Shown in pieces: positions 1,420 to 20,697 of a stretch of 21,588 nt of DNA. Every line of letters begins with the position of its first letter. Within the stretch, counting starts at the first letter, position 1. The notes beneath the pieces are model-generated. The model searched no databases. It saw only the letters and a program-made list of their open reading frames with translations, and had not been told where the DNA came from. Where the stretch lies: the IMG/VR virus record IMGVR_UViG_2563366997_000002; one strand, 5' to 3'. A program made the translations under genes and the position numbers. This DNA is from a virus (lineage: Duplodnaviria; Heunggongvirae; Uroviricota; Caudoviricetes).

Positions 1420-2845
1420 TAATGCCGATCAGTTAAGGATCAGTTGACCGATCCAGTGGCTGTGTAAGAATCCGGAAACGCTCACTCGTTTCCGGATTTT
1501 TTTATGCACATTGGACAGGCCCTTGATTTGGTATCCCGTTACGATTCTCTGCGTAACCCACTGACTTCTCTGGGGGATTACCTCGACCCCGAACTCATCT
1601 CTCGTTGCCTTGCCGAATCAGGTACTGTAACGCTACGCAAGCGCCGTCTTCCCCTCGAAATGATGGTCTGGTGTATTGTTGGCATGGCGCTTGAGCGTAA
1701 AGAACCTCTTCACCAGATTGTGAATCGCCTGGACATCATGCTGCCGGGCAATCGCCCCTTCGTTGCCCCCAGTGCCGTTATTCAGGCCCGCCAGCGCCTG
1801 GGAAGTGAGGCTGTCCGCCGCGTGTTCACGAAAACAGCGCAGCTCTGGCATAACGCCACGCCGCATCCGCAATGGTGCGGCCTGACCCTGCTGGCCATCG
1901 ATGGTGTGTTCTGGCGCACACCGGATACACCAGAGAACGATGCAGCCTTCCCCCGCCAGACACATGCCGGGAACCCGGCGCTCTACCCGCAGGTCAAAAT
2001 GGTCTGCCAGATGGAACTGACCAGCCATCTGCTGACGGCTGCAGCCTTCGGCACGATGAAGAACAGCGAAAATGAGCTTGCTGAGCAACTTATAGAACAA
2101 ACCGGCGATAACACTCTGACGTTAATGGACAAAGGTTATTACTCACTGGGACTGTTAAATGCCTGGAGCCTGGCGGGAGAACACCGCCACTGGATGATCC
2201 CTCTCAGAAAGGGAGCGCAATATGAAGAGATCAGAAAACTGGGTAAAGGCGATCATCTGGTGAAGCTGAAAACCAGCCCGCAGGCACGAAAAAAGTGGCC
2301 GGGACTGGGAAATGAGGTGACAGCCCGCCTGCTGACCGTGACGCGCAAAGGAAAAGTCTGCCATCTGCTGACGTCGATGACGGACGCCATGCGCTTCCCC
2401 GGAGGAGAAATGGCGGATCTGTACAGTCATCGCTGGGAAATCGAACTGGGATACAGGGAGATAAAACAGACGATGCAACTGAGCAGGCTGACGCTGAGAA
2501 GTAAAAAGCCGGAGCTTGTGGAGCAAGAGCTGTGGGGTGTCTTACTGGCTTATAATCTGGTGAGATATCAGATGATTAAAATGGCGGAACATCTGAAAGG
2601 TTACTGGCCGAATCAACTGAGTTTCTCAGAATCATGCGGAATGGTGATGAGAATGCTGATGACATTGCAGGGCGCTTCACCGGGACGTATACCGGAGCTG
2701 ATGCACGATCTTGCAAGTATGGGACAACTTGTGAAATTACCGACAAGAAGGGAAAGGGCCTTCCCGAGAGTGGTAAAGGAGAGGCCCTGGAAATACCCCA
2801 CAGCCCCGAAAAAGAGCCAGTCAGTTGCTTAACTGACTGGCATTA
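1420..2845 (+). mobile_element. IS4 insertion sequence, complete copy
   Basis: 1426 bp; imperfect terminal inverted repeats (left TAATGCCGATCAGTTAAGG, right end reverse-complement TAATGCCAGTCAGTTAAGC); single 442-aa transposase ORF; flanked by an 11-bp direct repeat. Confidence 0.95.
1504..2832 (+). CDS. insG: IS4 transposase
   Basis: 442-aa [23 protein letters not shown]..., recognised as the IS4-family transposase; it occupies almost the whole IS. Confidence 0.95.
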
Positions 2846-4159: not shown

Positions 4160-6223
4160 TCAGAAAACGTTAATACGAAAAGCGGGGAGCCAGTCGTAAA
4201 GAGTCACGGATGTGTCATACACCCATATGATTCCAGCGGAAGATCGAACACACCCTCTTGCACCAAGAGTCCGCCCGGAAGGTTTTACAGATGCGCCGCT
4301 CTGAAGTGGGTTTTCTGCTGTCGCATAGGAAACGCGCCCAAAACGTCCAGAGGGGGCGGTCGCCAGGTTAATCAGCACGCCCTTGCCGTCCGAGCTGATC
4401 GCGATGCTCGATATAGCAGGTGGAGCACCAGTCTCATCCGTGTAGCTAAAGCCGTAATTGGCCAGACCGGAGGTGTTGATCGTAGTCGTGTCCAGCACCA
4501 GGTTCGTATACGCTGGGACATTGATTTGTATCTGCGTGGGTGAGTTCCACACGAAACTGGTCGGAACCATCCCTGACCAGCCGCTCGTAAACCACTCCTG
4601 GAGAAGCGCTCTCGCCACAGCTGCTCCGCGCCGGTTCTGGCCCGCACACGTCAAGTGCAGACCGTCTGAAATAAAATCGTACTGGTACAAACTATTGACC
4701 AGCCTGAATTGCTCTTTTCCGTGCAATCGCGTCGACGCCAGTCGCGCGTACTGGCCTGTAAATGCACCATGCCCGTCATTGACATACCCCAGCTGGGTAA
4801 TGGCGATAATCGGCGGTTCGTTTTGACCCGTTCTTGCGATGATGTCGCTGGTGATTTGTCTCTGGTACTGCCTCATCCGTGATTCATACATTCCTTCTCG
4901 TAATCCTGACCAGTCCTCGTCGGACTCTCCCTGCATCCAGTCAACGCAGAGAACAATCGGCAGCCAGCCGCGTGCTTTACAGGCCGTTACGCAGTCTTCG
5001 ATTGAATCGAGCAGATACTGATATACCTGGTTACCCCGTTTCTGGTACTCGTAAGCCTGACCAGACTGCGCACATACGATTGATAGCGTGCGCGGCATGA
5101 TTCCGGTAGCTGCAGCCATATCGCGAATGAAGGTGTTCGCGAGGCCGCTTGCGGCCGTTTCTTTATCTGTCCCACTTACTGCCTCAACCAGTGGCACCAG
5201 AGTAGTGCTGCGTGTCCCTGTACGCCTAACCCCGCCGCTGAGCATGAAAGCGTTATCAGGATATATCGGCGTTGCTGCGACAATGGTTTGATCGGCGTCA
5301 GGACAATATCCTCGAGCGTTGGATTGCCCAGCAGTCACAAAGATAAAACATACAGGCACTGTCTCTGAGTAGGGGTACACAGTAGACCCTGACAAATGAA
5401 GTCCATACTCAGGGAGCTGGTTGGCATCATCGTCGCCACCACCACCGCCATTTCCGTTATTAACAGCTACCAGGCCACCGTCTGAGTAAATCCAGTGCTT
5501 CCCACCAACCGTATAAGCTTCAACGATCTGGTTTGTGGTTGAATCAACCGTCATCCGCCACACTTTTTCACCGCCAATAAACTGCGGTATAGAACCCTCC
5601 CGGCCCAGCGCATAGAGTTCGGATTCTTGTTGGGTTAAAAGTTCGTAATATTTTCCGTCAGGACCGATTTGAATTAATCTGCCGCTTGTATTTAAAAATG
5701 GAGCCACGCGGGAAGTCTCCGGATCATATGCTGCCAGGGTCACGCTGTCTGGCGATACCTGGTATGCGTAGTCGTCACGAACCATCCGCCGTCCGGTTGG
5801 CTGCAGCGTTCCAGCGAGGTTGATATACTCATCGGCCAGAGAGCTTCCGTCCTGACTGCGGACATAGGTTGTTGAACCTGCCGGAATATTCGCAATATCC
5901 GCCTGCGCCGCCGCCAGCGTCATGTACTGCCGGCTGAGAGGGATCAGGTTTTGGCGGGCTTCATCAATAACAGCGTCGGTAGCAGCTGCCATTTTTTTAG
6001 TAGCCCCAATTATCGTATCCTGGGCGTTACCAAAACGATCTATAAAAGTATCGCTTTCGCTGTTCAGGAAATCATCGTACGCCAGGGCGTTATCATTCAG
6101 ATCCTTCATGCTATTTGAAGGTCTTGGATTGCCGGTATTATATCTTTTGTCCATACCTGTTCCTGTCTTCATCTTTTCAATGAAGCAATTAAGATTGACG
6201 CCCCGCCCCTTCAGGGCTAACAT
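4160..6223 (-). CDS. tail-region protein with SGNH/SASA-type esterase domain (putative receptor-modifying tailspike or fibre)
   Basis: Up to 687 aa. Central domain has an SGNH-hydrolase nucleophile block VTAGQSNARGY and a distal DGLH block, as in sialate-O-acetylesterase-like proteins; a fibre-like N-terminal region and a C-terminal beta-rich region flank it. The true start is probably an internal Met (6172, 6154 or 6109), because 6218..6223 overlaps the -10 element of a divergent promoter. Confidence 0.7.
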   Translation of the reverse strand: MLALKGRGVNLNCFIEKMKTGTGMDKRYNTGNPRPSNSMKDLNDNALAYDDFLNSESDTFIDRFGNAQDTIIGATKKMAAATDAVIDEARQNLIPLSRQYMTLAAAQADIANIPAGSTTYVRSQDGSSLADEYINLAGTLQPTGRRMVRDDYAYQVSPDSVTLAAYDPETSRVAPFLNTSGRLIQIGPDGKYYELLTQQESELYALGREGSIPQFIGGEKVWRMTVDSTTNQIVEAYTVGGKHWIYSDGGLVAVNNGNGGGGGDDDANQLPEYGLHLSGSTVYPYSETVPVCFIFVTAGQSNARGYCPDADQTIVAATPIYPDNAFMLSGGVRRTGTRSTTLVPLVEAVSGTDKETAASGLANTFIRDMAAATGIMPRTLSIVCAQSGQAYEYQKRGNQVYQYLLDSIEDCVTACKARGWLPIVLCVDWMQGESDEDWSGLREGMYESRMRQYQRQITSDIIARTGQNEPPIIAITQLGYVNDGHGAFTGQYARLASTRLHGKEQFRLVNSLYQYDFISDGLHLTCAGQNRRGAAVARALLQEWFTSGWSGMVPTSFVWNSPTQIQINVPAYTNLVLDTTTINTSGLANYGFSYTDETGAPPAISSIAISSDGKGVLINLATAPSGRFGRVSYATAENPLQSGASVKPSGRTLGARGCVRSSAGIIWVYDTSVTLYDWLPAFRINVF
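6195..6223 (+). promoter_or_regulatory. putative sigma70 promoter for the HTH/acyltransferase cassette
   Basis: TTGACG, 17-bp spacer, TAACAT, located 9-33 bp upstream of the first plus-strand starts. Confidence 0.4.
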
Positions 6224-6231
6224 CGCCTTAC

Positions 6232-6519
6232 GTGTTTAAACGGTTAAATAAGAGAATGATTTTAATAAATAAATACACCCCTCCAACGCAGGAAGATTTA
6301 GCCAGACTGAAATCCGCACTAAATTACTCCGGAAACCAAATGGCAGGGCTCGCAGGTGTAGCCAGCGATAGCCAATGGCGGAAATACACTGGCGGAGAGA
6401 GCCCCAGGGTAATGTCAAGACACATACTGTTTTATATTGCAGCTCAGCTTGTTCTGTCTGATGAGCAACTTAACAATGTAATAAATAAAATGCGCGATAT
6501 TGGCGCGGAGATAAAATAA
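6232..6519 (+). CDS. small XRE-like HTH protein (putative regulator), coupled to the acyltransferase
   Basis: 95 aa from a GTG start (87 aa from ATG at 6256). The segment LNYSGNQMAGLAGVASDSQWRKYTGGE resembles a Cro/C1-type helix-turn-helix. Its stop overlaps the acyltransferase start (ATAATG). AT-rich. Confidence 0.5.
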   Translation: MFKRLNKRMILINKYTPPTQEDLARLKSALNYSGNQMAGLAGVASDSQWRKYTGGESPRVMSRHILFYIAAQLVLSDEQLNNVINKMRDIGAEIK

Positions 6520-7610
6520 TGCTTGGCCTAATAAGGTTTTTTTTGGCATCGTGCGTCATTGCTTTTCACTTAACGGCTCGCATACCTGCACTTGGCAACT
6601 TTGCAGTGAATTGCTTCTATGTTATTAGTGGTTTTTTAATAACATACATTTTGCATGAAACATACAAGTTCAACTTCTCTATGTTTTGGAAAAATAGAAT
6701 ACTGAGGTTATTCCCGGCATATATATTTTTTCTCGTCATGGGCTTTCTTATTATAAAATTAATTCCATCCGCAAAGGAATTCCACTCAAACTGGACAGGC
6801 AATTTCTTACCTGGAGATTTATTAGGAAACCTCTTAATCTTCCCCTGGGCTTTCCTTTCTGATAATGCTGTAGCAAATCCATTCGGTGCCTTTTCATCCA
6901 TTTATCACTTTGCTATTGATGGTAATAGATTCAGAATAGTCACATCATCATGGTCAGTGGGTGTTGAGATAACATGTTATTTTTTATTGTGGCTTTTCAT
7001 AGCCCGAAATAAATTTACAGCCATTACGTCGATTCTGCTTTCACTGCTTTATCATGCTTACGTATATGTAGTACACCATTCTTTTGATATGGCGTATTTC
7101 CCATTCCTTGCTGCAACACTTCCTTTTAGCATGGGTTCTCTGGGTTATTTTGCCCATAGAAAGTTCAAAGCTATGTATCTTTCTCCACACAAAGCTTTTT
7201 TAATAACATTTATTTGCATCGGGATTTTTATTACCAATTGGCATTTATATACAATTAATCCATTAGGTCAGTACAACATAATACTTTACTACACCAATAA
7301 TGTAATAGCATTGTTTACAACCCTGGTATTATTAAAAATAAAGACAAACATACATCTTGAGAAAATACTCAAGTGGTTTGGTGACCTGGCCTATCCAATT
7401 TTTCTTTGTCAATATTTTGGTGGATTTCTAGCATGGCTTGCTATTGGTGGTGAAAATCGTGGCTTATCCATCTTTTTATTAGGCTACCCAATATCAATTG
7501 CACTTGGGATCGTTTGTGTAATATTAATAGACAAGCCACTAATTAAAATTAGAGCAAAAATAAGGGCGGACGCTCAAAGCAAAAATAATCAGGAAAACTC
7601 TTCAAGGTAA
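6519..7610 (+). CDS. acyltransferase family 3 (OafA/Oac-like) integral membrane O-acyltransferase
   Basis: 363 aa, strongly hydrophobic with multiple predicted TM segments. N-terminal region FHLTARIPALGNFAVNCFYVISGFLITY is typical of AT3 acyltransferases. Markedly AT-rich relative to flanks; opposite strand to the structural genes. Confidence 0.8.
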   Translation: MLGLIRFFLASCVIAFHLTARIPALGNFAVNCFYVISGFLITYILHETYKFNFSMFWKNRILRLFPAYIFFLVMGFLIIKLIPSAKEFHSNWTGNFLPGDLLGNLLIFPWAFLSDNAVANPFGAFSSIYHFAIDGNRFRIVTSSWSVGVEITCYFLLWLFIARNKFTAITSILLSLLYHAYVYVVHHSFDMAYFPFLAATLPFSMGSLGYFAHRKFKAMYLSPHKAFLITFICIGIFITNWHLYTINPLGQYNIILYYTNNVIALFTTLVLLKIKTNIHLEKILKWFGDLAYPIFLCQYFGGFLAWLAIGGENRGLSIFLLGYPISIALGIVCVILIDKPLIKIRAKIRADAQSKNNQENSSR

Positions 7611-11237: not shown

Positions 11238-12319
11238 TGGTTTAGTCCGGGTATTTGCTGGTAGAAAGCATAAGGCTGGACAGCGAAAGCCTCCGGGGGC
11301 ATCAGATAAAGGCGCGCATGGGTGCCGTCACTGTCTCTGATATAAGTCACCTCTGCGATAAGCAATTCGGTGTCAGGCAGCTGCAGACTCGGGATGTTGA
11401 CCGGGATAAGCGTATTCGGCTCCCATAATTTCCCGGATTTATCGCGCCAGGAATCAATCGTCACCGTTAACTGACGGGAACGGCCGTATCGGCGGTTCAT
11501 CTCCCAGTCAATCGCTCGCTGAGCCTGTTGTGAAGCCATCAGTGTACTTTCAACAATAATGATCCGTTTTCGGTAACGCATACTGGCCGCCTCAGGATCG
11601 CGGGCCGTCGCCAGCGTCACCGAATCATAAGCCGTATCTGGCGAGAATCCTGCAATCGGCGAAATGCTCATCGATACGCCGACGTAATCAGAAAAGCGGT
11701 CAGCCATCGAACGGCGGTAATAAGCCTGTTCGATATTTACCCCTTCTGCGATACCGCTGGCCGCGCGCTTTGTCCCCACCCGGGTCAGAAATAAGTTACC
11801 GTCAGGCTGATCGTAATAAAGCAATGCCGACCAGCGGGAGACACGATCAAGTATTTCCTGTGGCGATTCCCCCCAGTTCAGGGAAAATTGCGGAACTTTC
11901 ACCAGATCATCAACGTCTGTACTTACGCCAATGTTGTAATGGGATGCGAGGCGGGAGGCTATATCAAGCGCATTACTGTTATTGATGACGTTATTTGGCC
12001 ATTCAGCAGAGCAATCAACGAGATCTGCGCACTTACTGCGGCCTGAGGCTCTGACTTCATGGCGCGAACGGGAAATAGCAGGCGACCAGTCATCAACATA
12101 CCCCGTCACTACCAGGTCGTTACCAAGCTTTACCTGACAAGGCATCCCTTCCTTTACCAGCTGCTTCTGGTCACTTCCCGGAAAATAATCCATCAGTCCC
12201 AGGTCAAAATCGGAGGGAAAACGCTCAATGCCACGGGTCACCCGCACAGAGTCCCATCCTTCAATGATTTTTCCGCCCACTGTCAGGGAGACAATATCCT
12301 GATCATTATCCGTACTCAT
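11234..12319 (-). CDS. baseplate hub protein (Mu P/gp44, P2 gpD late-control-D family)
   Basis: 361 aa; size, order (hub, then spike, gp46, J) and general resemblance to the phage tail protein D family. It does not resemble a major capsid protein. Confidence 0.7.
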   Translation of the reverse strand: MSTDNDQDIVSLTVGGKIIEGWDSVRVTRGIERFPSDFDLGLMDYFPGSDQKQLVKEGMPCQVKLGNDLVVTGYVDDWSPAISRSRHEVRASGRSKCADLVDCSAEWPNNVINNSNALDIASRLASHYNIGVSTDVDDLVKVPQFSLNWGESPQEILDRVSRWSALLYYDQPDGNLFLTRVGTKRAASGIAEGVNIEQAYYRRSMADRFSDYVGVSMSISPIAGFSPDTAYDSVTLATARDPEAASMRYRKRIIIVESTLMASQQAQRAIDWEMNRRYGRSRQLTVTIDSWRDKSGKLWEPNTLIPVNIPSLQLPDTELLIAEVTYIRDSDGTHARLYLMPPEAFAVQPYAFYQQIPGLNQ

Positions 12320-12702
12320 TGTCTCAACACCTTCATCGTCGTCGGCATAAATGCCGGATGCGGTACGCTGGCCTCCTGTATCAGTTCATTTGCCCGCGAG
12401 GCATCCTGATACAGGCGGTTGGCCAGTACCAGGGCAGGAACCGGCACCGCAGTATTGATTTGCATCAACTCACTCAGTCCGGATGAAGTCTGAGCCATGG
12501 TATTCAGAAAAGCGGTTCTCACGTCCATCAATGCCGTATAAAGATCATCATCGCCACGGTCGCCCGCCAGTAGTAACGCGGTATCCAGTTGCCCGGCCAC
12601 GCGTTGAGTGATTTCTTCGGCCTCATTACGACTGGTTGGGTTGTAATCTGCAGCAGCATCCGTCATGGCTCCGGTACATAGCACTACGATCAGCGTGTTC
12701 AT
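12316..12702 (-). CDS. hypothetical protein, possibly the 3' remnant of a DNA-circulation (Mu N-like) gene
   Basis: 128 aa from the first ATG; an internal ATG at 12666 has a GGAG SD. Its stop overlaps the hub start (ATGA). It overlaps the decoration-protein ORF by 41-77 nt in another frame, consistent with a deletion junction. Confidence 0.4.
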   Translation of the reverse strand: MNTLIVVLCTGAMTDAAADYNPTSRNEAEEITQRVAGQLDTALLLAGDRGDDDLYTALMDVRTAFLNTMAQTSSGLSELMQINTAVPVPALVLANRLYQDASRANELIQEASVPHPAFMPTTMKVLRQ

Positions 12703-13135
12703 GGTGCCAGCCAGTTGCTGGCTGCTTTCGGAACGCTGGTAAAGGTGCCTGGGCGCTGTCTTTCAGGAAGATGGCCAGCGGACGTAGTGCTGTTTTCAGT
12801 TCCGGCGCAGTCCAGGAATCGTCAAAAATAATATGATTCTGGTTGAACTCGCCCATCAGGTACAGGCCGCCGGACTGATCGCCATGGGTGGAAGCGTCAA
12901 CATCATCAACCAGAATGGCCGCTGGCGTCTCGCTACCATCCGTTGCGGTTTTCACACTGGCTGTATATTTGCCACTGGCGGTGATCATGCCAAGCACAGT
13001 GCCACGCTTATACACACCGCCGGTGATCGTGCCGGTGTCAGTGACCAGTTGCAGCGTACCGGCAATTAACTGATCCGGCACAAACACTGAACTCTTCATG
13101 CCAGGTGCAAAGGCATTCTGACCAAATTGATCCAT
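12626..13135 (-). CDS. head decoration protein (lambda gpD-like) with aberrant 3' extension
   Basis: First about 125 aa fit the head-decoration pattern (...AAILVDDVD...GLYLMGEFN...LKTALRPLAIFLK). The last about 40 aa (PLPAFRKQPATGWHHEHADRSAMYRSHDGCCCRLQPNQS) look like out-of-frame read-through. Start overlaps the scaffold-like gene stop (TAATG). Confidence 0.6.
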   Translation of the reverse strand: MDQFGQNAFAPGMKSSVFVPDQLIAGTLQLVTDTGTITGGVYKRGTVLGMITASGKYTASVKTATDGSETPAAILVDDVDASTHGDQSGGLYLMGEFNQNHIIFDDSWTAPELKTALRPLAIFLKDSAQAPLPAFRKQPATGWHHEHADRSAMYRSHDGCCCRLQPNQS

Positions 13136-16495: not shown

Positions 16496-18628
16496 TTATT
16501 GCGGCAGGAGTTTAGAAATGTTCTTACGCTTAACAGGAGCCATAGCCTCATCCACGATGGCACCCGGTAATTCGTAATTGATTTTTTCTTCTGGCTCGGC
16601 TGGCGCCGGCAGGAACTTATCGGGATCGGCCTGAAGGTTAGCGGCCCGAACATTGAGTTTTAATCCCATATGTTTCAGCCCACACAACGCGGCATAGCTG
16701 TAAACGAGGCAGTCGAGTGCTTCGTTCGCCCGTCCGGGGATAGGCTCCCAGACACTGAATCGCTGACCGGCCACCACTTTATAAACCAGTCGCTCGGCCA
16801 GCAGCTGGTTGAAATAGCCGAGGTCACGATCATCCGGGAAGTGCATATAGCCCGCACCGGCAGTACCTAAAGCTGGCGGTTCAAGATGCAGACGACCACG
16901 GACAACATCTTTCGCAGAGTTCACGCCAAGTATAATTGGCCTGAAGCTGGCTTTACTTTTTGATGTCGGTCGCTTGGTTGGCCAGACGGGGTTGCGTTTC
17001 CCACCCTGCGCAGATTCGCCCTTGATAGCCCAGACGCGGCGCCCAAGGCGATCTTTGCAGAACTCATAAACCTTTTGCGTGTGGTGACCGCCGGAGTCCA
17101 TACATGCAGCCAGAATATTCAGCCCTCGCCCGTCGCCGCGTCGCCATATCTGTTTCAGGTACGCATCGAGGCGCTTCCAGGGTTCCTCAGTCTCCAGATC
17201 GCCATAAATGACGTCATGCGCAACTGACCACGATTCCTCGTCCCGCCCCCAGCCAGTGATCGTGATTTCGAATCGGTCATCCTGAGTATCGACGCCCGCA
17301 GTTAACAATGCCACGCCATCAGGAACGACGGCCGGGAAGACTTCACGGCGCGCCAGCAGGACATCAACCGGGAGCTGTTTCCCGTGGTTAGGCCGGTGCG
17401 GCAACCCCATCTGGGTGTTCCACCAGGCCTGTTCCTTATCCGGATCCCCTTTCGCATCGAGGTATTTCTTTGCAATGTCCGATGGCTTGTCTTTTTGCCA
17501 GGGACTGAAGAGTTTTGACGCCTGGTACCCGGCGTGGTGATTATCCAGCGCCTCGGCCCCGCAGTCCGGGCAAATCGCCCGGTATACGGCATGCCGTTCC
17601 GACTCTGACCAGCGCCAGACGGCATCAACACTGCCCTCGTCTCCTTCATGCCATTTCTGGTCGTATTCCATTAATGGTGAATGGCGGGAACCACAACATT
17701 CAAACGGTTTGGTCTGATGCCAGCGGATTGTCTGTAATGCCCGCAGACGCTCACCCTCTGACCAGCCAGCACCACAACATTCACAATGGATCATGGCCGC
17801 TTTGGTCAGGTGCTTATCACCTTCTTTTGGCCATTGAACATGTTTGAAGAAATCAAGGAACTGTCGGTGCCCGCAATGGGGGCAAACTACAGAGGCCCGC
17901 CGCTGATCTGAATCTTCGTAACTGTCAGCAATCCGGCTTTCATCTTCGATCGTCGGCGAACAAGCCCGCACGGACAGCCAGTTAAGGCCAAATGTGGCGG
18001 TTCGCTCTTCCGCCAGAGCGATGGGATCGCCCTCACGGGTAATCGGATATTTATCCACCTCATCTGCCAGCAGAACACGGATCGGACGGCGCGCAAGGTT
18101 ATCTGGACTACCGGCGCCGGCCAGCGCCAGAAATCCGCCGGTGAAAGCTTTATACAGAATGGTTTCTTTTGAACTCTTCTGCTTTGAGTCACCTATGATG
18201 TTACGCAGAACTGGCGTTACCCTAACCAGCGGGCTGATGCGTTCTTTGGAAAACTGCTCAGCGGCCTCTTCCTTCGGCTGCAGGAGCAAAATCGGACATG
18301 GGTCGAGGTGCGCAAAATAACCAAACAGGTTTTCCAGCAGCGCGGTTTTCATTAACTGGGTACAGCACATCACGGTGATAATGTGGACGCCCGATTCCGT
18401 CGCGGCCAGCATAGGACCGCGGGCAATTTCAACCGTTGATGTTTCCCAGTTCCCGGAGGTACTGCCAGCTTCTTTCGCCAGCTTCCGGTAGTCATCGGCC
18501 CATTGCGGGACGCTGATCCGCGGCGGCGGTGTCCACCCTTTCCGGACACTCAGTTGAAGACGCTCAATCTTCCGCTGGGTTAAACTCTGGTTCTCCGAGG
18601 ACTGAGATATGTTTGTGGACATGTTCAA
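16496..18628 (-). CDS. terminase large subunit (lambda gpA family)
   Basis: 710 aa; contains the VDTQDDRFEITITGWGRDEESW segment I recognise from gpA-type terminases; 5' end overlaps the small-subunit gene as in lambda. Confidence 0.9.
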   Translation of the reverse strand: MNMSTNISQSSENQSLTQRKIERLQLSVRKGWTPPPRISVPQWADDYRKLAKEAGSTSGNWETSTVEIARGPMLAATESGVHIITVMCCTQLMKTALLENLFGYFAHLDPCPILLLQPKEEAAEQFSKERISPLVRVTPVLRNIIGDSKQKSSKETILYKAFTGGFLALAGAGSPDNLARRPIRVLLADEVDKYPITREGDPIALAEERTATFGLNWLSVRACSPTIEDESRIADSYEDSDQRRASVVCPHCGHRQFLDFFKHVQWPKEGDKHLTKAAMIHCECCGAGWSEGERLRALQTIRWHQTKPFECCGSRHSPLMEYDQKWHEGDEGSVDAVWRWSESERHAVYRAICPDCGAEALDNHHAGYQASKLFSPWQKDKPSDIAKKYLDAKGDPDKEQAWWNTQMGLPHRPNHGKQLPVDVLLARREVFPAVVPDGVALLTAGVDTQDDRFEITITGWGRDEESWSVAHDVIYGDLETEEPWKRLDAYLKQIWRRGDGRGLNILAACMDSGGHHTQKVYEFCKDRLGRRVWAIKGESAQGGKRNPVWPTKRPTSKSKASFRPIILGVNSAKDVVRGRLHLEPPALGTAGAGYMHFPDDRDLGYFNQLLAERLVYKVVAGQRFSVWEPIPGRANEALDCLVYSYAALCGLKHMGLKLNVRAANLQADPDKFLPAPAEPEEKINYELPGAIVDEAMAPVKRKNISKLLPQ

Positions 18629-19127
18629 TCAGCACCTCTGTCATCCTGTCCGCCGGCACATTCAGATCGGCGGCTATCAGCGGTGCCACGCGTGAAGGCC
18701 AGTTCAGCCAGGCATCACGCTGCTGGCGAAAGGCGTTAAACAGAACCTCCTCGGCGATGGCCAATTCAATTGTCTGGCCGCTGTCTTTTTCATACTGGAG
18801 CTTTGCCTGCAGGGCCATGTAATTTTCACGGATCCGCGCGGCCTCTTCCCTGGAAAGGACTGCACCTTCTGTAAGCATTATCTGGCGAACGGTTTCATCA
18901 ATTTCATCGTCGCCATCATTCCGGGGTGCTGGGGCTTTTTTCTTCTTCGCGTTTGATGCCCGCGGATCTTTTCCATCACGGTTTTTCTTCAGCGCGGCAT
19001 CGCTCGCCTCAACATCAATCAGGTCGCCATCCATGACGATAAACCGACCAGCCTTGATCCATCGGCCAATAGTCTTGCGATCGACGCCTGAATGTTGCGC
19101 GTACTGACTCTGGTTCATCGTGGTCAT
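18564..19127 (-). CDS. terminase small subunit (lambda Nu1-like)
   Basis: 187 aa; N-terminal HTH-like segment (DRKTIGRWIKAGRFIV) like Nu1; immediately downstream of a repeat-rich putative cos region. Confidence 0.8.
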   Translation of the reverse strand: MTTMNQSQYAQHSGVDRKTIGRWIKAGRFIVMDGDLIDVEASDAALKKNRDGKDPRASNAKKKKAPAPRNDGDDEIDETVRQIMLTEGAVLSREEAARIRENYMALQAKLQYEKDSGQTIELAIAEEVLFNAFRQQRDAWLNWPSRVAPLIAADLNVPADRMTEVLIEHVHKHISVLGEPEFNPAED

Positions 19128-19273
19128 GGGACATCACCTGGGACATTTTTGGGGTGGGACATTTACCTGGGACATTTTTTCAATGTCCCACACGAATGTC
19201 CCACTGGAATAAATGGAATAATCCGTGCTGGCTCTGGCGTGGCTGGCGATCCCTTGGGGTGGGACATGGGACA
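19128..19273. repeat. putative cosB-like terminase-binding repeat cluster (TGGGACAT motif)
   Basis: TGGGACAT direct copies at 19139, 19155, 19168 and 19260 (plus GGGACAT at 19128), and inverted copies ATGTCCCA at 19183 and 19196, all within 150 bp upstream of the small-terminase start. Confidence 0.45.
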
Positions 19274-19374
19274 CAAAATAAAAGTTTGTAGCTAGGAAAA
19301 CACTGCGGCGCGCAATGCCCGTGCCTTACAAAAGTCTCAGGAAGGACCCAAACCCTATGGGGTAGGTATTCAGG

Positions 19375-19899
19375 TCATTTTGCCGTTCGAATCGCTTCCT
19401 CAATCGCCCTACTCAGCGCGCCGGGCATTAAGCCGGCTGCCATTGACCGTGAGCGGTTCATGTAGTCAAGCGTAGGCGTAACAGGTAGAGCATCACCAAA
19501 CCTCACCAGCAGCTTAGGAGCACGCTGTTTCCGCTTTGGTCTGCGCGTACCATTCGCTGAGCGCCGGGCTCGTTTCTTTTTCGCCTTCTTCGGTTTACGC
19601 CTCTGCCAGACAGCATCAACACCATTGACCTCACCTACGAACACATTCGGCTTCGCTTTCAACTGCGACAGCTTATTTCGCGGCATGTTGCCGTATTTGT
19701 TCAGTTTGATGTTCTTTGGATTGAGCAGCGCCTGGCTGTTCAGTTTATGTTCACCACCAAATTCAAAGGGTTCGAGATATTCAGCGGCGACATCGCGCAC
19801 AAAGACTTTTGCGCGGAGGTTGTTCTTTCTGGCGCCAGCAGAGCCCACTGAGTTGACGGTGAACGGCGTCGGCGATTCCAGTTTTCGCCCCAGTGCCAC
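19375..19899 (-). CDS. hypothetical highly basic protein (174 aa)
   Basis: Long ORF between the integrase remnant and the cos-like region, same strand as the late operon; Lys/Arg-rich tract RRKPKKAKKKRARRSANGTRRPKRKQRAPK; no Cys. No family recognised; could be spurious. Confidence 0.35.
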   Translation of the reverse strand: MALGRKLESPTPFTVNSVGSAGARKNNLRAKVFVRDVAAEYLEPFEFGGEHKLNSQALLNPKNIKLNKYGNMPRNKLSQLKAKPNVFVGEVNGVDAVWQRRKPKKAKKKRARRSANGTRRPKRKQRAPKLLVRFGDALPVTPTLDYMNRSRSMAAGLMPGALSRAIEEAIRTAK

Positions 19900-20495
19900 C
19901 TTTTGCGCTGCGGCGATATCAGCGTGGTTATGTACCAGGTAATCCGTGTGTTGGTGTCGATAAGTTTCCTAAACCCCAGCGCGACCGCTACATAACTGAT
20001 GAAGAGTACATAGCTATCTTCACTCATGCGACACCTGCAGTTAAAGCCGCGATGGAAATTGCGTATCTTTGCGCTGCAAGGGTATCTGATGTTCTTAAAA
20101 TGAACTGGAATCAGATTCTTGATAAAGGAATTTTCATACAGCAAGGTAAAACTGGTATTAAACAGATCAAAGCCTGGACTGAGCGTCTTAGTGCGGCTGT
20201 GGATATTTGCAGGGAATGGGGACAGGATGGCCCTGTTATCAGGACAATGTATGGTGAGCGTTATTCATACAAGGGATTTAATGAAGCATGGAGAAAAGCG
20301 AGAAACGCGGCTTCTGAAGAACTTGGTAGGCCACTTGATTGCACCTTCCATGATCTAAAGGCTAAAGGGATCTCAGACTATGAAGGATCTGGCAGGGATA
20401 AGCAAAAATTCAGTGGTCATAAGACAGAATCACAGGTACTTGTTTACGACAGGAAAGTTAAAATCAGCCCAACGTTGAACAAGAAAATGAGATGA
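19893..20495 (+). pseudogene. tyrosine integrase, catalytic C-terminal domain only (5'-truncated)
   Basis: 200-aa ORF with an integrase catalytic-domain pattern (HDLKAKGISD ... SGHKTESQVLVYDR with the nucleophile Tyr). The frame is closed by a stop at 19860..19862 and no upstream frame encodes an integrase N-terminal domain. Ends 112 bp from the tRNA 3' end. Confidence 0.8.
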
Positions 20496-20607
20496 TTCTT
20501 TGGCGTCGGAGCATGCTTCGGCGCTAGAATTTTTCTCAGTGGATTTTCTCAATTTTTCTCATCGGGATGCAGGTCACTGAAAGGGAATGCTGTAAGTGTT
20601 TGAATAG

Positions 20608-20697
20608 TGGCGGAGAGAGGGGGATTTGAACCCCCGGTAGAGTTGCCCCTACTCCGGTTTTCGAGACCGGTCCGTTCAGCCGCTCCGGCATCTCTCC
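20608..20697 (-). tRNA. serU: tRNA-Ser (anticodon CGA)
   Basis: The reverse complement is a 90-nt class II tRNA (GGAGAGATGCCGGAGCGGCTGAACGGACCGGTCTCGAAAACCGG...GGGGGTTCAAATCCCCCTCTCTCCGCCA) with a 7-bp acceptor stem, CGA anticodon, long variable arm and encoded CCA. Confidence 0.93.

What the first reader, a model, noticed from the sequence alone, without database searches (positions are those of the whole stretch)
19375..19899. Unassigned, highly basic 174-aa ORF between the integrase remnant and the cos-like region
A long ORF on the late-operon strand with a 30-residue Lys/Arg-rich tract and no recognisable family occupies the position where lysis or early genes have been lost. It could be a nucleic-acid-binding protein, a fusion created by the deletion, or a spurious ORF (a 105-aa ORF overlaps it on the other strand).
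Basis: inference. Interest (0 to 1): 0.4.

Follow-up and report, generated by a model that had tools for sequence, protein, structure and literature searches.

The report
Truncated phage tail-completion gene remnant
The basic 174-codon reading frame is the beheaded leftover of a real phage gene, a distant relative of lambda's tail completion protein Z, stranded in a defective E. coli HS prophage by a large deletion; it is an ordinary gene remnant.

Summary
The ORF exists as described: window 19375-19899, minus strand, 174 codons, pI 11.4, 18 Lys/Arg in 30 residues. It is not unassigned and not complete. It is 99% identical to residues 39-212 of a 212-aa prophage protein, and its GTG "start" is that protein's internal Val39 codon. 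A deletion with its junction at 19917-19920 joined codon 33 of this gene to the 3' part of an integrase gene. That removed the early, regulatory and lysis genes. RefSeq already marks both pieces as pseudogenes in E. coli HS.

The minus-strand frame is the selected one: 33 nucleotide differences from one relative cause no amino-acid change. The overlapping 105-aa plus-strand ORF is an antisense artefact.

The gene's position is unusual. It is always the last gene before cos and the small terminase subunit gene.

The parts
19375..19917 (-). Remnant of the gpZ-like (phrog_1924) gene: codons 33-212 plus the stop of a 212-codon gene. The native start and the first 32 codons are deleted.
   Evidence: 99% identical to residues 39-212 of DY612 WP_029394712.1. 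Homology to DY612 DNA ends at 19920. RefSeq pseudogene ECHS_RS10380, 'missing N-terminus'.
19375..19899 (-). The 174-codon mechanical ORF of the finding. Its GTG at 19897-19899 is the internal Val39 codon of the full-length gene.
19513..19602 (-). Lys/Arg-rich tract (ORF residues 100-129; residues 138-167 of the full-length protein). It is a surface loop between two beta strands at the apex of the fold. In the family its length is variable and its net charge is always positive.
   Evidence: 18 of 30 residues are K/R. The loop is 6-39 residues long with net charge +1 to +17 in 91 homologues. It is modelled as coil with pLDDT 75-78. It falls in a variable alignment block.
19917..19920 (.). Deletion junction. 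The sequence to the left matches the late region of related prophages and the sequence to the right matches an intact serU-type integrase gene. The overlap is ATC, inside an imperfect 15-nt microhomology.
   Evidence: Three-way alignment of HS, DY612 and strain 127. BLAST match ranges 1-821 and 807-1401.
19917..20495 (+). 3' remnant of a tyrosine integrase gene, lacking about 133 N-terminal codons.
   Evidence: Pfam Phage_integrase E 3e-10. RefSeq pseudogene ECHS_RS10385. The intact 324-aa homologue is in strain 127.
19625..19942 (+). 105-aa antisense ORF. It is an artefact of the open frame opposite a coding region, not a gene.
   Evidence: No family hit. The same nucleotide differences cause 6 amino-acid changes in this frame and 0 in the sense frame against D53-1. 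The frame carries 1-3 stops in relatives.
19307..19318 (-). cosN-like 12-mer GCATTGCGCGCC, identical to the annotated cohesive end of Serratia phage BZS1. It lies 56 nt downstream of the ORF's stop codon.
   Evidence: Exact match, plus a flanking alignment with the joined BZS1 ends. cosL is annotated in MT843275.
19127..19274 (.). Eight copies of TGGGACAT in both orientations between cosN and the small terminase gene. This is a likely cosB-type array of terminase binding sites.
   Evidence: Repeat families D1-D6 and inverted repeats I1-I10. The function is inferred.
18564..19127 (-). Small terminase subunit gene (Nu1-like).
   Evidence: phrog_57 E 1.7e-34
16496..18628 (-). Large terminase subunit gene (lambda gpA type).
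   Evidence: Pfam GpA_ATPase and GpA_nuclease
20608..20697 (-). tRNA-Ser(CGA) gene, the prophage attachment site next to mtfA.
   Evidence: ARAGORN; RefSeq annotation

Best explanation
The ORF is the non-functional 3' remnant of a phage structural gene in a defective prophage of E. coli HS, integrated at the tRNA-Ser gene next to mtfA.

A deletion, most simply a single one, ran from about codon 133 of the integrase gene to codon 33 of this gene. It removed the excision, immunity, replication, antitermination and lysis genes, together with this gene's start codon and its late promoter. The 174-codon ORF exists only because an internal Val codon (GTG) can be read as a start.

The intact 212-aa protein belongs to a large family (phrog_1924). 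I interpret this family as a divergent branch of the tail completion proteins: lambda gpZ, HK97 gp10, SPP1 gp16.1 and 80alpha gp51.

By analogy with 80alpha gp51, I infer the following. One copy sits in the lumen of the head-tail neck. [quoted passage not shown] Its apex faces and caps the end of the packaged DNA. The Lys/Arg-rich apex loop supplies the positive surface that contacts the DNA end.

Shown here: the truncation, the junction, purifying selection on this frame, family membership, the fold match, and the conserved position just upstream of cos. Inferred: location in the virion, DNA-end capping, and the role of the basic loop.

In strain HS the remnant most likely does nothing. The first three quarters of the N-terminal helix are missing. 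No promoter-like site or good ribosome-binding site precedes it. The prophage also lacks capsid, sheath, tube and tape measure genes.
For: Truncation:
- The ORF aligns with residues 39-212 of the 212-aa DY612 protein at 99% identity and with the 213-aa phiNP protein at 75%.
- The junction is at 19917-19920.
- RefSeq annotates both flanking pieces as partial pseudogenes.
- The junction is found only in four HS assemblies and two O9:H10 pig isolates among 5,426 genomes.

Real coding frame:
- Against D53-1 there are 33 nucleotide differences, 30 of them at codon position 3, and 0 amino-acid changes.
- dN/dS is 0.06-0.10 in the pairs where it can be measured.

Family:
- phrog_1924, E 6e-45 for the remnant and 1.5e-58 for the full-length protein.
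- 1,264 representatives at 50% identity reach E<1e-3.

Link to tail completion proteins:
- 15 of 94 diverse members hit Pfam Minor_tail_Z, best E 2.4e-7.
- hhalign of the family against a lambda gpZ alignment gives 77.8% probability and E 1.9e-5.
- Lambda gpZ hits phrog_1924 at E 1.9e-4.
- Some database sources name members 'minor tail protein Z' or 'HK97 gp10 family'.
- The AlphaFold2 model has pLDDT 93.5 and pTM 0.81, with long terminal helices and a beta-rich middle.
- Named BFVD hits are HK97 gp10 family proteins and tail components.

Mechanism by analogy: 80alpha gp51 is a monomer inside the neck that caps the DNA end, presents a positive surface to the DNA and binds tape measure protein N-termini (10.1101/2024.12.10.627806).

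Basic loop: net positive in all 91 homologues examined.

No expression signals: no promoter-like site on either strand in 19000-20600.

Defective prophage: the head decoration gene is fused to a baseplate hub fragment, with the capsid-to-tape-measure genes missing (compared).
Against: - The E. coli protein itself reaches no Pfam or NCBIfam model.
- Sequence searches of the PDB find nothing, and Foldseek against the PDB gives no significant match.
- The profile-profile match to gpZ covers only the N-terminal 72 columns.
- hhalign of the family profile against a single HK97 gp10 sequence finds nothing.
- The gene is not where tail completion genes normally lie, between the head-closure and tail-terminator genes. 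It lies upstream of cos and the small terminase gene, next to the packaging genes, which would equally suit a packaging factor.
- No virion proteomics or genetics for any member was found.
- BZS1 p09 and p11 in the head-tail cluster remain unassigned, so a second tail completion protein in these phages is not excluded.
- Expression of the remnant in HS was not measured.
Confidence: 0.72

Rival explanations
1. The intact family is not a virion tail completion protein. It is instead an accessory factor of lambda-type cos packaging, for example a cos- or terminase-associated DNA-binding protein that shares an ancestral fold with gpZ. The window copy is still a truncated remnant.
For: The gene always lies immediately upstream of cos and the small terminase gene, and it travels with the Nu1/DUF1441 - GpA - gpW - portal module. 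This holds in close relatives (73 of 75 loci). It also holds in homologues of 29-36% identity from Alphaproteobacteria phages and metagenomes, whatever the tail type. The protein is very basic throughout the family, with pI 10.0-11.9.
Against: The only strong structural match is a protein located inside the neck of a virion. Sequence links lead to gpZ, a tail protein. The head-linked position can also be explained by contacts of a tail completion protein with the DNA end and the head-tail connector, as seen in 80alpha.
Confidence: 0.2
2. The 174-aa ORF is expressed from the internal GTG and has been kept by E. coli HS as a new small basic nucleic-acid-binding protein.
For: The frame is intact over 543 nt. 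Its four differences from DY612 are all synonymous. It carries a 30-residue tract with 18 K/R.
Against: Divergence from DY612 is under 1%, so intactness says nothing about selection since the deletion. No promoter-like site is found. The sequence before the GTG offers only AAGG directly abutting the start codon. The N-terminal helix that pairs with the C-terminal helix in the model is mostly gone. The junction occurs only in HS and two close isolates.
Confidence: 0.05
3. The ORF is spurious and the real gene is the 105-aa ORF on the opposite strand, or the ORF encodes a chimeric protein made by the deletion.
For: A 105-aa ORF overlaps it on the plus strand. That antisense frame shows a moderately low dN/dS of 0.16-0.26.
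Against: The antisense frame has no family match. It takes 6 amino-acid changes where the sense frame takes none. Its low dN/dS is what a frame whose most variable positions coincide with those of the true frame would show. Upstream of the junction, the sense frame has 17 codons without a start and then a stop, so no integrase-derived peptide is fused to it.
Confidence: 0.02

Closest known systems
Phage lambda gpZ (Pfam PF06763 Minor_tail_Z; phrog_27 'tail completion or Neck1 protein')
   Same: Similar length (192 aa against 212 aa). It belongs to a cos phage with a Nu1-gpA-gpW-portal head module. It is detectably related in sequence: 15 of 94 family members hit PF06763, hhalign gives E 1.9e-5, and gpZ hits phrog_1924. 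According to the 80alpha paper, gpZ has a beta domain at the apex between long terminal helices, as in the model here.
   Different: The E. coli HS and DY612 protein does not itself reach the Pfam model. The similarity is confined to the N-terminal third. The gene lies upstream of cos rather than between FII and U. The family carries a long, variable, basic loop.
Staphylococcus phage 80alpha gp51 (PDB 9mu2 chain P; HK97 gp10 family tail completion protein), with HK97 gp10 and SPP1 gp16.1
   Different: Only 12% identity. The protein here is twice as long, with an inserted beta domain and basic loop. 80alpha packages DNA by the headful mechanism and has a non-contractile tail. The aromatic residues that cap the DNA in gp51 were not mapped onto this family.
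phrog_1924 ('minor tail protein'), including Rhodobacter phages RcCronus, RcRhea and RcSaxon, Dinoroseobacter phage R4C gp49, Citrobacter phage phiNP_029 and Serratia phage BZS1 p72
   Same: This is the family the remnant belongs to (E 6e-45). Its members hold the same position as the last gene before the right cohesive end.
   Different: The window copy lacks the first 32 codons and the native start. The enterobacterial members have the most highly charged loop (+17 against a family median of +6).

Membership tests
phrog_1924 (annotated 'minor tail protein') | Significant match to the family profile over most of its length | tested here: met
   The remnant scores E 6.2e-45 over profile positions 48-237 of 237. 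The full-length homologue P0005 scores E 1.5e-58 over positions 8-237.
phrog_1924 (annotated 'minor tail protein') | Complete gene with its native start codon | tested here: not met
   The window copy begins at codon 33 of 212, and the first possible start is the internal Val39 GTG. It is a pseudogene copy of a family member.
Tail completion proteins (lambda gpZ PF06763 / HK97 gp10 PF04883 superfamily) | Match to the Pfam models at their curated thresholds | tested here: not met
   No Pfam or NCBIfam hit for the remnant, the full-length E. coli protein, or the phiNP and BZS1 homologues, even at E<=10.
Tail completion proteins (lambda gpZ PF06763 / HK97 gp10 PF04883 superfamily) | Remote sequence homology at profile level | tested here: inconclusive
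   15 of 94 diverse family members hit Minor_tail_Z (best E 2.4e-7). hhalign against a gpZ alignment gives 77.8% probability and E 1.9e-5, but over only 72 N-terminal columns. Lambda gpZ hits phrog_1924 at E 1.9e-4. There is no signal against a single HK97 gp10 sequence.
Tail completion proteins (lambda gpZ PF06763 / HK97 gp10 PF04883 superfamily) | Fold: a long bent N-terminal helix, a loop and beta region, and a long C-terminal helix | tested here: met
Tail completion proteins (lambda gpZ PF06763 / HK97 gp10 PF04883 superfamily) | Gene located between the head-closure (FII-type) and tail-terminator genes | tested here: not met
   In DY612, phiNP, BZS1, R4C, phiAP1 and metagenomic homologues the gene lies directly upstream of cos and the small terminase gene. 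No gpZ or gp10 model hit was found in the BZS1 head-tail cluster.
Tail completion proteins (lambda gpZ PF06763 / HK97 gp10 PF04883 superfamily) | Present in the virion neck lumen, contacting the DNA end and the tape measure protein; loss gives poorly infectious particles | not testable with these tools
   This needs virion proteomics, cryo-EM or genetics. The papers on phiNP and the Rhodobacter phages do not address this protein.

The most novel reading that the evidence does not exclude
The intact phrog_1924 family may be a distinct, head-module-linked class of tail completion protein. It would be encoded as the last gene before the right cohesive end. It would be inherited together with the lambda-type Nu1-gpA-gpW-portal packaging module, regardless of whether the phage has a contractile Mu-like tail or a long non-contractile tail. 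Its hyper-basic, length-variable apex loop would grip or thread alongside the single-stranded cos end in the neck. The tail completion protein would then be matched to the DNA end and the connector rather than to the tail.
Probability: 0.3. Interest if true: 0.4.

Novelty: new member of a known kind. Interest (0 to 1): 0.15.

Why it matters
For this window it matters little. The finding is a dead gene fragment. It helps to date and delimit the deletion that disabled the E. coli HS prophage at the tRNA-Ser gene.

The wider point is about annotation. A family of more than a thousand sequence clusters is labelled 'hypothetical' by NCBI and is missed by Pfam and NCBIfam. It can be assigned with reasonable confidence to the tail completion proteins (gpZ / HK97 gp10).

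Its constant position next to cos and the terminase genes, across phages with different tail types, suggests that this protein co-evolves with the DNA end and the head connector. That idea is modest but testable. It is also timely, because the location of tail completion proteins in virions was only recently seen for the first time, in 80alpha.

Tried and rejected
Searches that found nothing useful:
- Pfam and NCBIfam scans of the remnant and of the full-length homologues gave no hit.
- Single-sequence and profile searches of PDB sequences gave only noise.
- hhalign of the family profile against single lambda gpZ and HK97 gp10 sequences was weak (E 7e-4) or null. A gpZ alignment was then built.
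- The search for related loci with the 91-sequence alignment failed for lack of a conserved block. A 12-sequence alignment worked, but only relatives of 71% identity or more were kept.
- The literature on the Rhodobacter RcA phages and on Citrobacter phiNP gave no statement about this gene.

Readings considered and rejected:
- An HNH endonuclease, the usual accessory gene next to terminase genes in HK97-like cos phages. There is no HNH match, and the fold is different.
- A fusion with the integrase.
- An antisense gene.
- A lysis or early gene. In intact relatives the lysis cassette lies upstream of this gene.

Not resolved: whether one deletion inside a single prophage made the junction, or recombination between two elements did. 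The closest intact late region (DY612) sits at a different attachment site with a different integrase.

Full report
**Where the window comes from.** The window is part of the E. coli HS chromosome, with 100% identity to NC_009800.1. It covers a prophage integrated at a tRNA-Ser(CGA) gene next to mtfA. Reading down the minus strand from the finding, the genes are:
- a cos-like region;
- a Nu1-like small terminase gene (phrog_57);
- a gpA-type large terminase gene;
- gpW, portal and S49 protease genes;
- Mu-like baseplate genes.

**The observation.** The ORF at 19375..19899 on the minus strand, 174 codons with a GTG start, is real. Its product would have pI 11.4. It contains a 30-residue window with 18 Lys/Arg, at ORF residues 100-129. 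A 105-aa ORF overlaps it on the plus strand at 19625..19942. The description is therefore accurate.

**The ORF is a beheaded gene.**
- Related E. coli prophages carry a 212-codon gene at this place. The HS ORF is 99% identical to residues 39-212 of the DY612 protein WP_029394712.1 and 75% identical to the 213-aa protein of Citrobacter phage phiNP.
- The GTG "start" is the Val39 codon of the full-length gene.
- The homologous frame continues upstream to 19917. Beyond that there are 17 codons of unrelated sequence with no start codon, then a stop.
- A three-way alignment places the break at 19917-19920. To the left, HS matches DY612. To the right, it matches an intact 324-aa integrase gene at the same tRNA-Ser site in strain 127. 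The overlap is ATC inside an imperfect 15-nt microhomology.
- In intact relatives the order is integrase, early genes, Q, lysis cassette, this gene, cos, terminase. The simplest history is therefore one deletion from integrase codon ~133 to codon 33 of this gene.
- RefSeq already marks both pieces as partial pseudogenes.
- The junction is found only in four HS assemblies and two O9:H10 pig isolates among 5,426 complete genomes.

**Which strand codes.**
- Against strain D53-1, the 543 nt differ at 33 positions. Thirty of these are at codon position 3 of the minus-strand frame, and there are no amino-acid changes.
- The same differences cause 6 changes in the frame of the 105-aa plus-strand ORF and 29 in each of the other two antisense frames.
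- Against JNQH498, dN/dS is 0.06. Against phage BZS1 it is 0.10.
- The antisense ORF has no family match. Its intermediate dN/dS of 0.16-0.26 is what a frame whose most variable positions coincide with those of the true frame would show.
- The minus-strand frame is the gene and the plus-strand ORF is an artefact.

**The family.**
- Pfam and NCBIfam give nothing.
- PHROGs places the remnant in phrog_1924, "minor tail protein", at E 6e-45. The match covers profile positions 48-237 of 237, which again shows the missing N-terminus.
- An exhaustive search finds 1,264 representatives at 50% identity with E<1e-3, mostly 200-230 aa.
- Conserved motifs include Q-x-P-F-A, P-T-P-F-T, Y-L-x-P, G-G, Y-G-N, G-V-W-Q-R and L-K-L-L.
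- The Lys/Arg tract lies between the G-V-W-Q-R and L-K-L-L motifs. That segment varies from 6 to 39 residues and is not conserved in sequence, but it has a net positive charge in all 91 homologues examined (+1 to +17, median +6). The enterobacterial version is at the extreme, +17.

**Relationship to tail completion proteins.** Several independent lines agree:
- 15 of 94 diverse members hit Pfam Minor_tail_Z, best E 2.4e-7.
- A profile of the family aligns with a profile of lambda gpZ homologues at 77.8% probability and E 1.9e-5, over the N-terminal 72 columns.
- Lambda gpZ hits phrog_1924 at E 1.9e-4.
- Some database sources already name members "minor tail protein Z" or "HK97 gp10 family".
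- An AlphaFold2 model of the full-length protein is confident: pLDDT 93.5 and pTM 0.81. It has a long N-terminal helix (residues 4-44), a beta-rich middle with the basic loop as coil, and a long C-terminal helix (residues 184-211).
- Foldseek against the PDB was not sensitive enough.
- Foldseek against predicted viral structures returns HK97 gp10 family proteins and tail components among the named hits.

**How the intact protein most likely works.**
- In the 80alpha/SaPI1 neck, a single gp51 molecule sits in the lumen just below the end of the packaged DNA. [quoted passage not shown] The authors equate it with lambda gpZ, HK97 gp10 and SPP1 gp16.1, and they note that gpZ has an extra beta domain at the apex (10.1101/2024.12.10.627806).
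- By analogy, I infer that the phrog_1924 protein is the DNA-end plug of these phages, and that its basic apex loop contacts the DNA end.
- This is an inference. No proteomic or genetic data on any member were found.

**An unusual position.**
- Tail completion genes normally lie between the head-closure and tail-terminator genes. This family does not.
- In the DY612 prophage, phiNP, BZS1, Acetobacter phage phiAP1, Dinoroseobacter phage R4C and the Rhodobacter RcA phages, it is the last gene before cos and the small terminase gene.
- In 73 of 75 close viral contigs a gpA-type large terminase gene follows on the same strand.
- Three metagenomic homologues of only 31-36% identity show the same order: this gene, then Nu1 or DUF1441. 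One of them (P0251) also has GpA, gpW, a portal and an S49 protease downstream.
- The linkage holds both for phages with contractile Mu-like tails (BZS1 and phiNP) and for phages named as siphoviruses (vB_DshS-R4C).
- In HS, the 12-nt cohesive end annotated for BZS1 (GCATTGCGCGCC) is exactly conserved at 19307-19318, 56 nt after the ORF's stop codon.
- This position is the main argument for the rival reading, that the protein is a packaging accessory factor. I give that reading about 0.2.
- No gpZ or gp10 model hit was found in the BZS1 head-tail cluster. However, two proteins there (p09 and p11) remain unassigned.

**State of the copy in HS.**
- It lacks the native start and most of the N-terminal helix.
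- No promoter-like site is found on either strand between 19000 and 20600.
- The bases before the GTG offer no properly spaced Shine-Dalgarno sequence.
- The prophage has a second internal deletion that fuses the head decoration gene to a baseplate hub fragment. That removed the capsid, sheath, tube and tape measure genes (compared).
- That the frame is intact says nothing about selection, because HS and DY612 differ at only four synonymous sites.

**Verdict.** It is wrong on "no recognisable family" and on the fusion and spurious-ORF alternatives. The object is an ordinary pseudogene remnant of a divergent member of the tail completion protein class. The only mildly interesting aspect is the family's constant cos-adjacent, head-module-linked position together with its hyper-basic loop.

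Noticed in passing
window 19307-19318 (minus strand): The 12-nt cohesive end annotated for Serratia phage BZS1 (GCATTGCGCGCC) is exactly conserved here, with similar flanks. This pins cosN of the defective HS prophage 56 nt downstream of the ORF's stop codon.
   Followed up: yes
window 19127-19274: There are eight copies of TGGGACAT in both orientations between cosN and the small terminase start, probably a cosB-type array of terminase binding sites. BZS1 has a different repeat (GGTAACA) at the same place.
   Followed up: partly
window 12316-13135: There is a second internal deletion in the prophage. A head decoration gene (12626-13135) overlaps a 128-aa fragment matching the C-terminus of a baseplate hub / DNA circulation protein (12316-12702). 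The major capsid, head-tail joining, sheath, tube and tape measure genes seen in DY612 and BZS1 are missing.
   Followed up: partly
window 1504-2832 (+): An IS4-family transposase gene (Nterm_IS4 plus DDE_Tnp_1) lies at the far end of the prophage.
   Followed up: no
window 4160-6223 (-) and 6519-7610 (+): A 687-aa protein with a SASA carbohydrate esterase domain and a 363-aa Acyl_transf_3 acyltransferase lie beyond the tail fibre region. They are likely surface-polysaccharide-modifying cargo. BZS1 carries OafA-type O-acetylase genes at the equivalent place.
   Followed up: no
L097:6001-12308; L094:1079-3916; L096:375-1816: Homologues of only 31-36% identity keep the same position directly before the small terminase gene (Phage_Nu1 or DUF1441). 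In L097 the GpA terminase, gpW, portal and S49 protease genes follow. The linkage of this family to the lambda-type packaging and head module is therefore old.
   Followed up: partly
L098 (E. coli DY612, NZ_CP047469.1 1938000-1956200): The closest intact late region belongs to a prophage integrated beside a DUF72 gene near yecN. It has a different, 419-aa integrase. The late module is therefore mosaic with respect to the integration module, and the HS ancestor cannot be reconstructed from DY612 alone.
   Followed up: partly
window 18564-19127 (-): The small terminase subunit matches phrog_57 (E 1.7e-34) but does not reach the Pfam Phage_Nu1 model. RefSeq calls it a hypothetical protein.
   Followed up: no
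L011:7559-7981 and L011:8322-8864 (Serratia phage BZS1 p09 and p11): Two proteins in the head-tail joining cluster have no functional assignment (phrog_28439 and phrog_6774, both of unknown function). p11 is annotated 'ATP-binding tail sheath protein' in GenBank without support from these scans.
   Followed up: no
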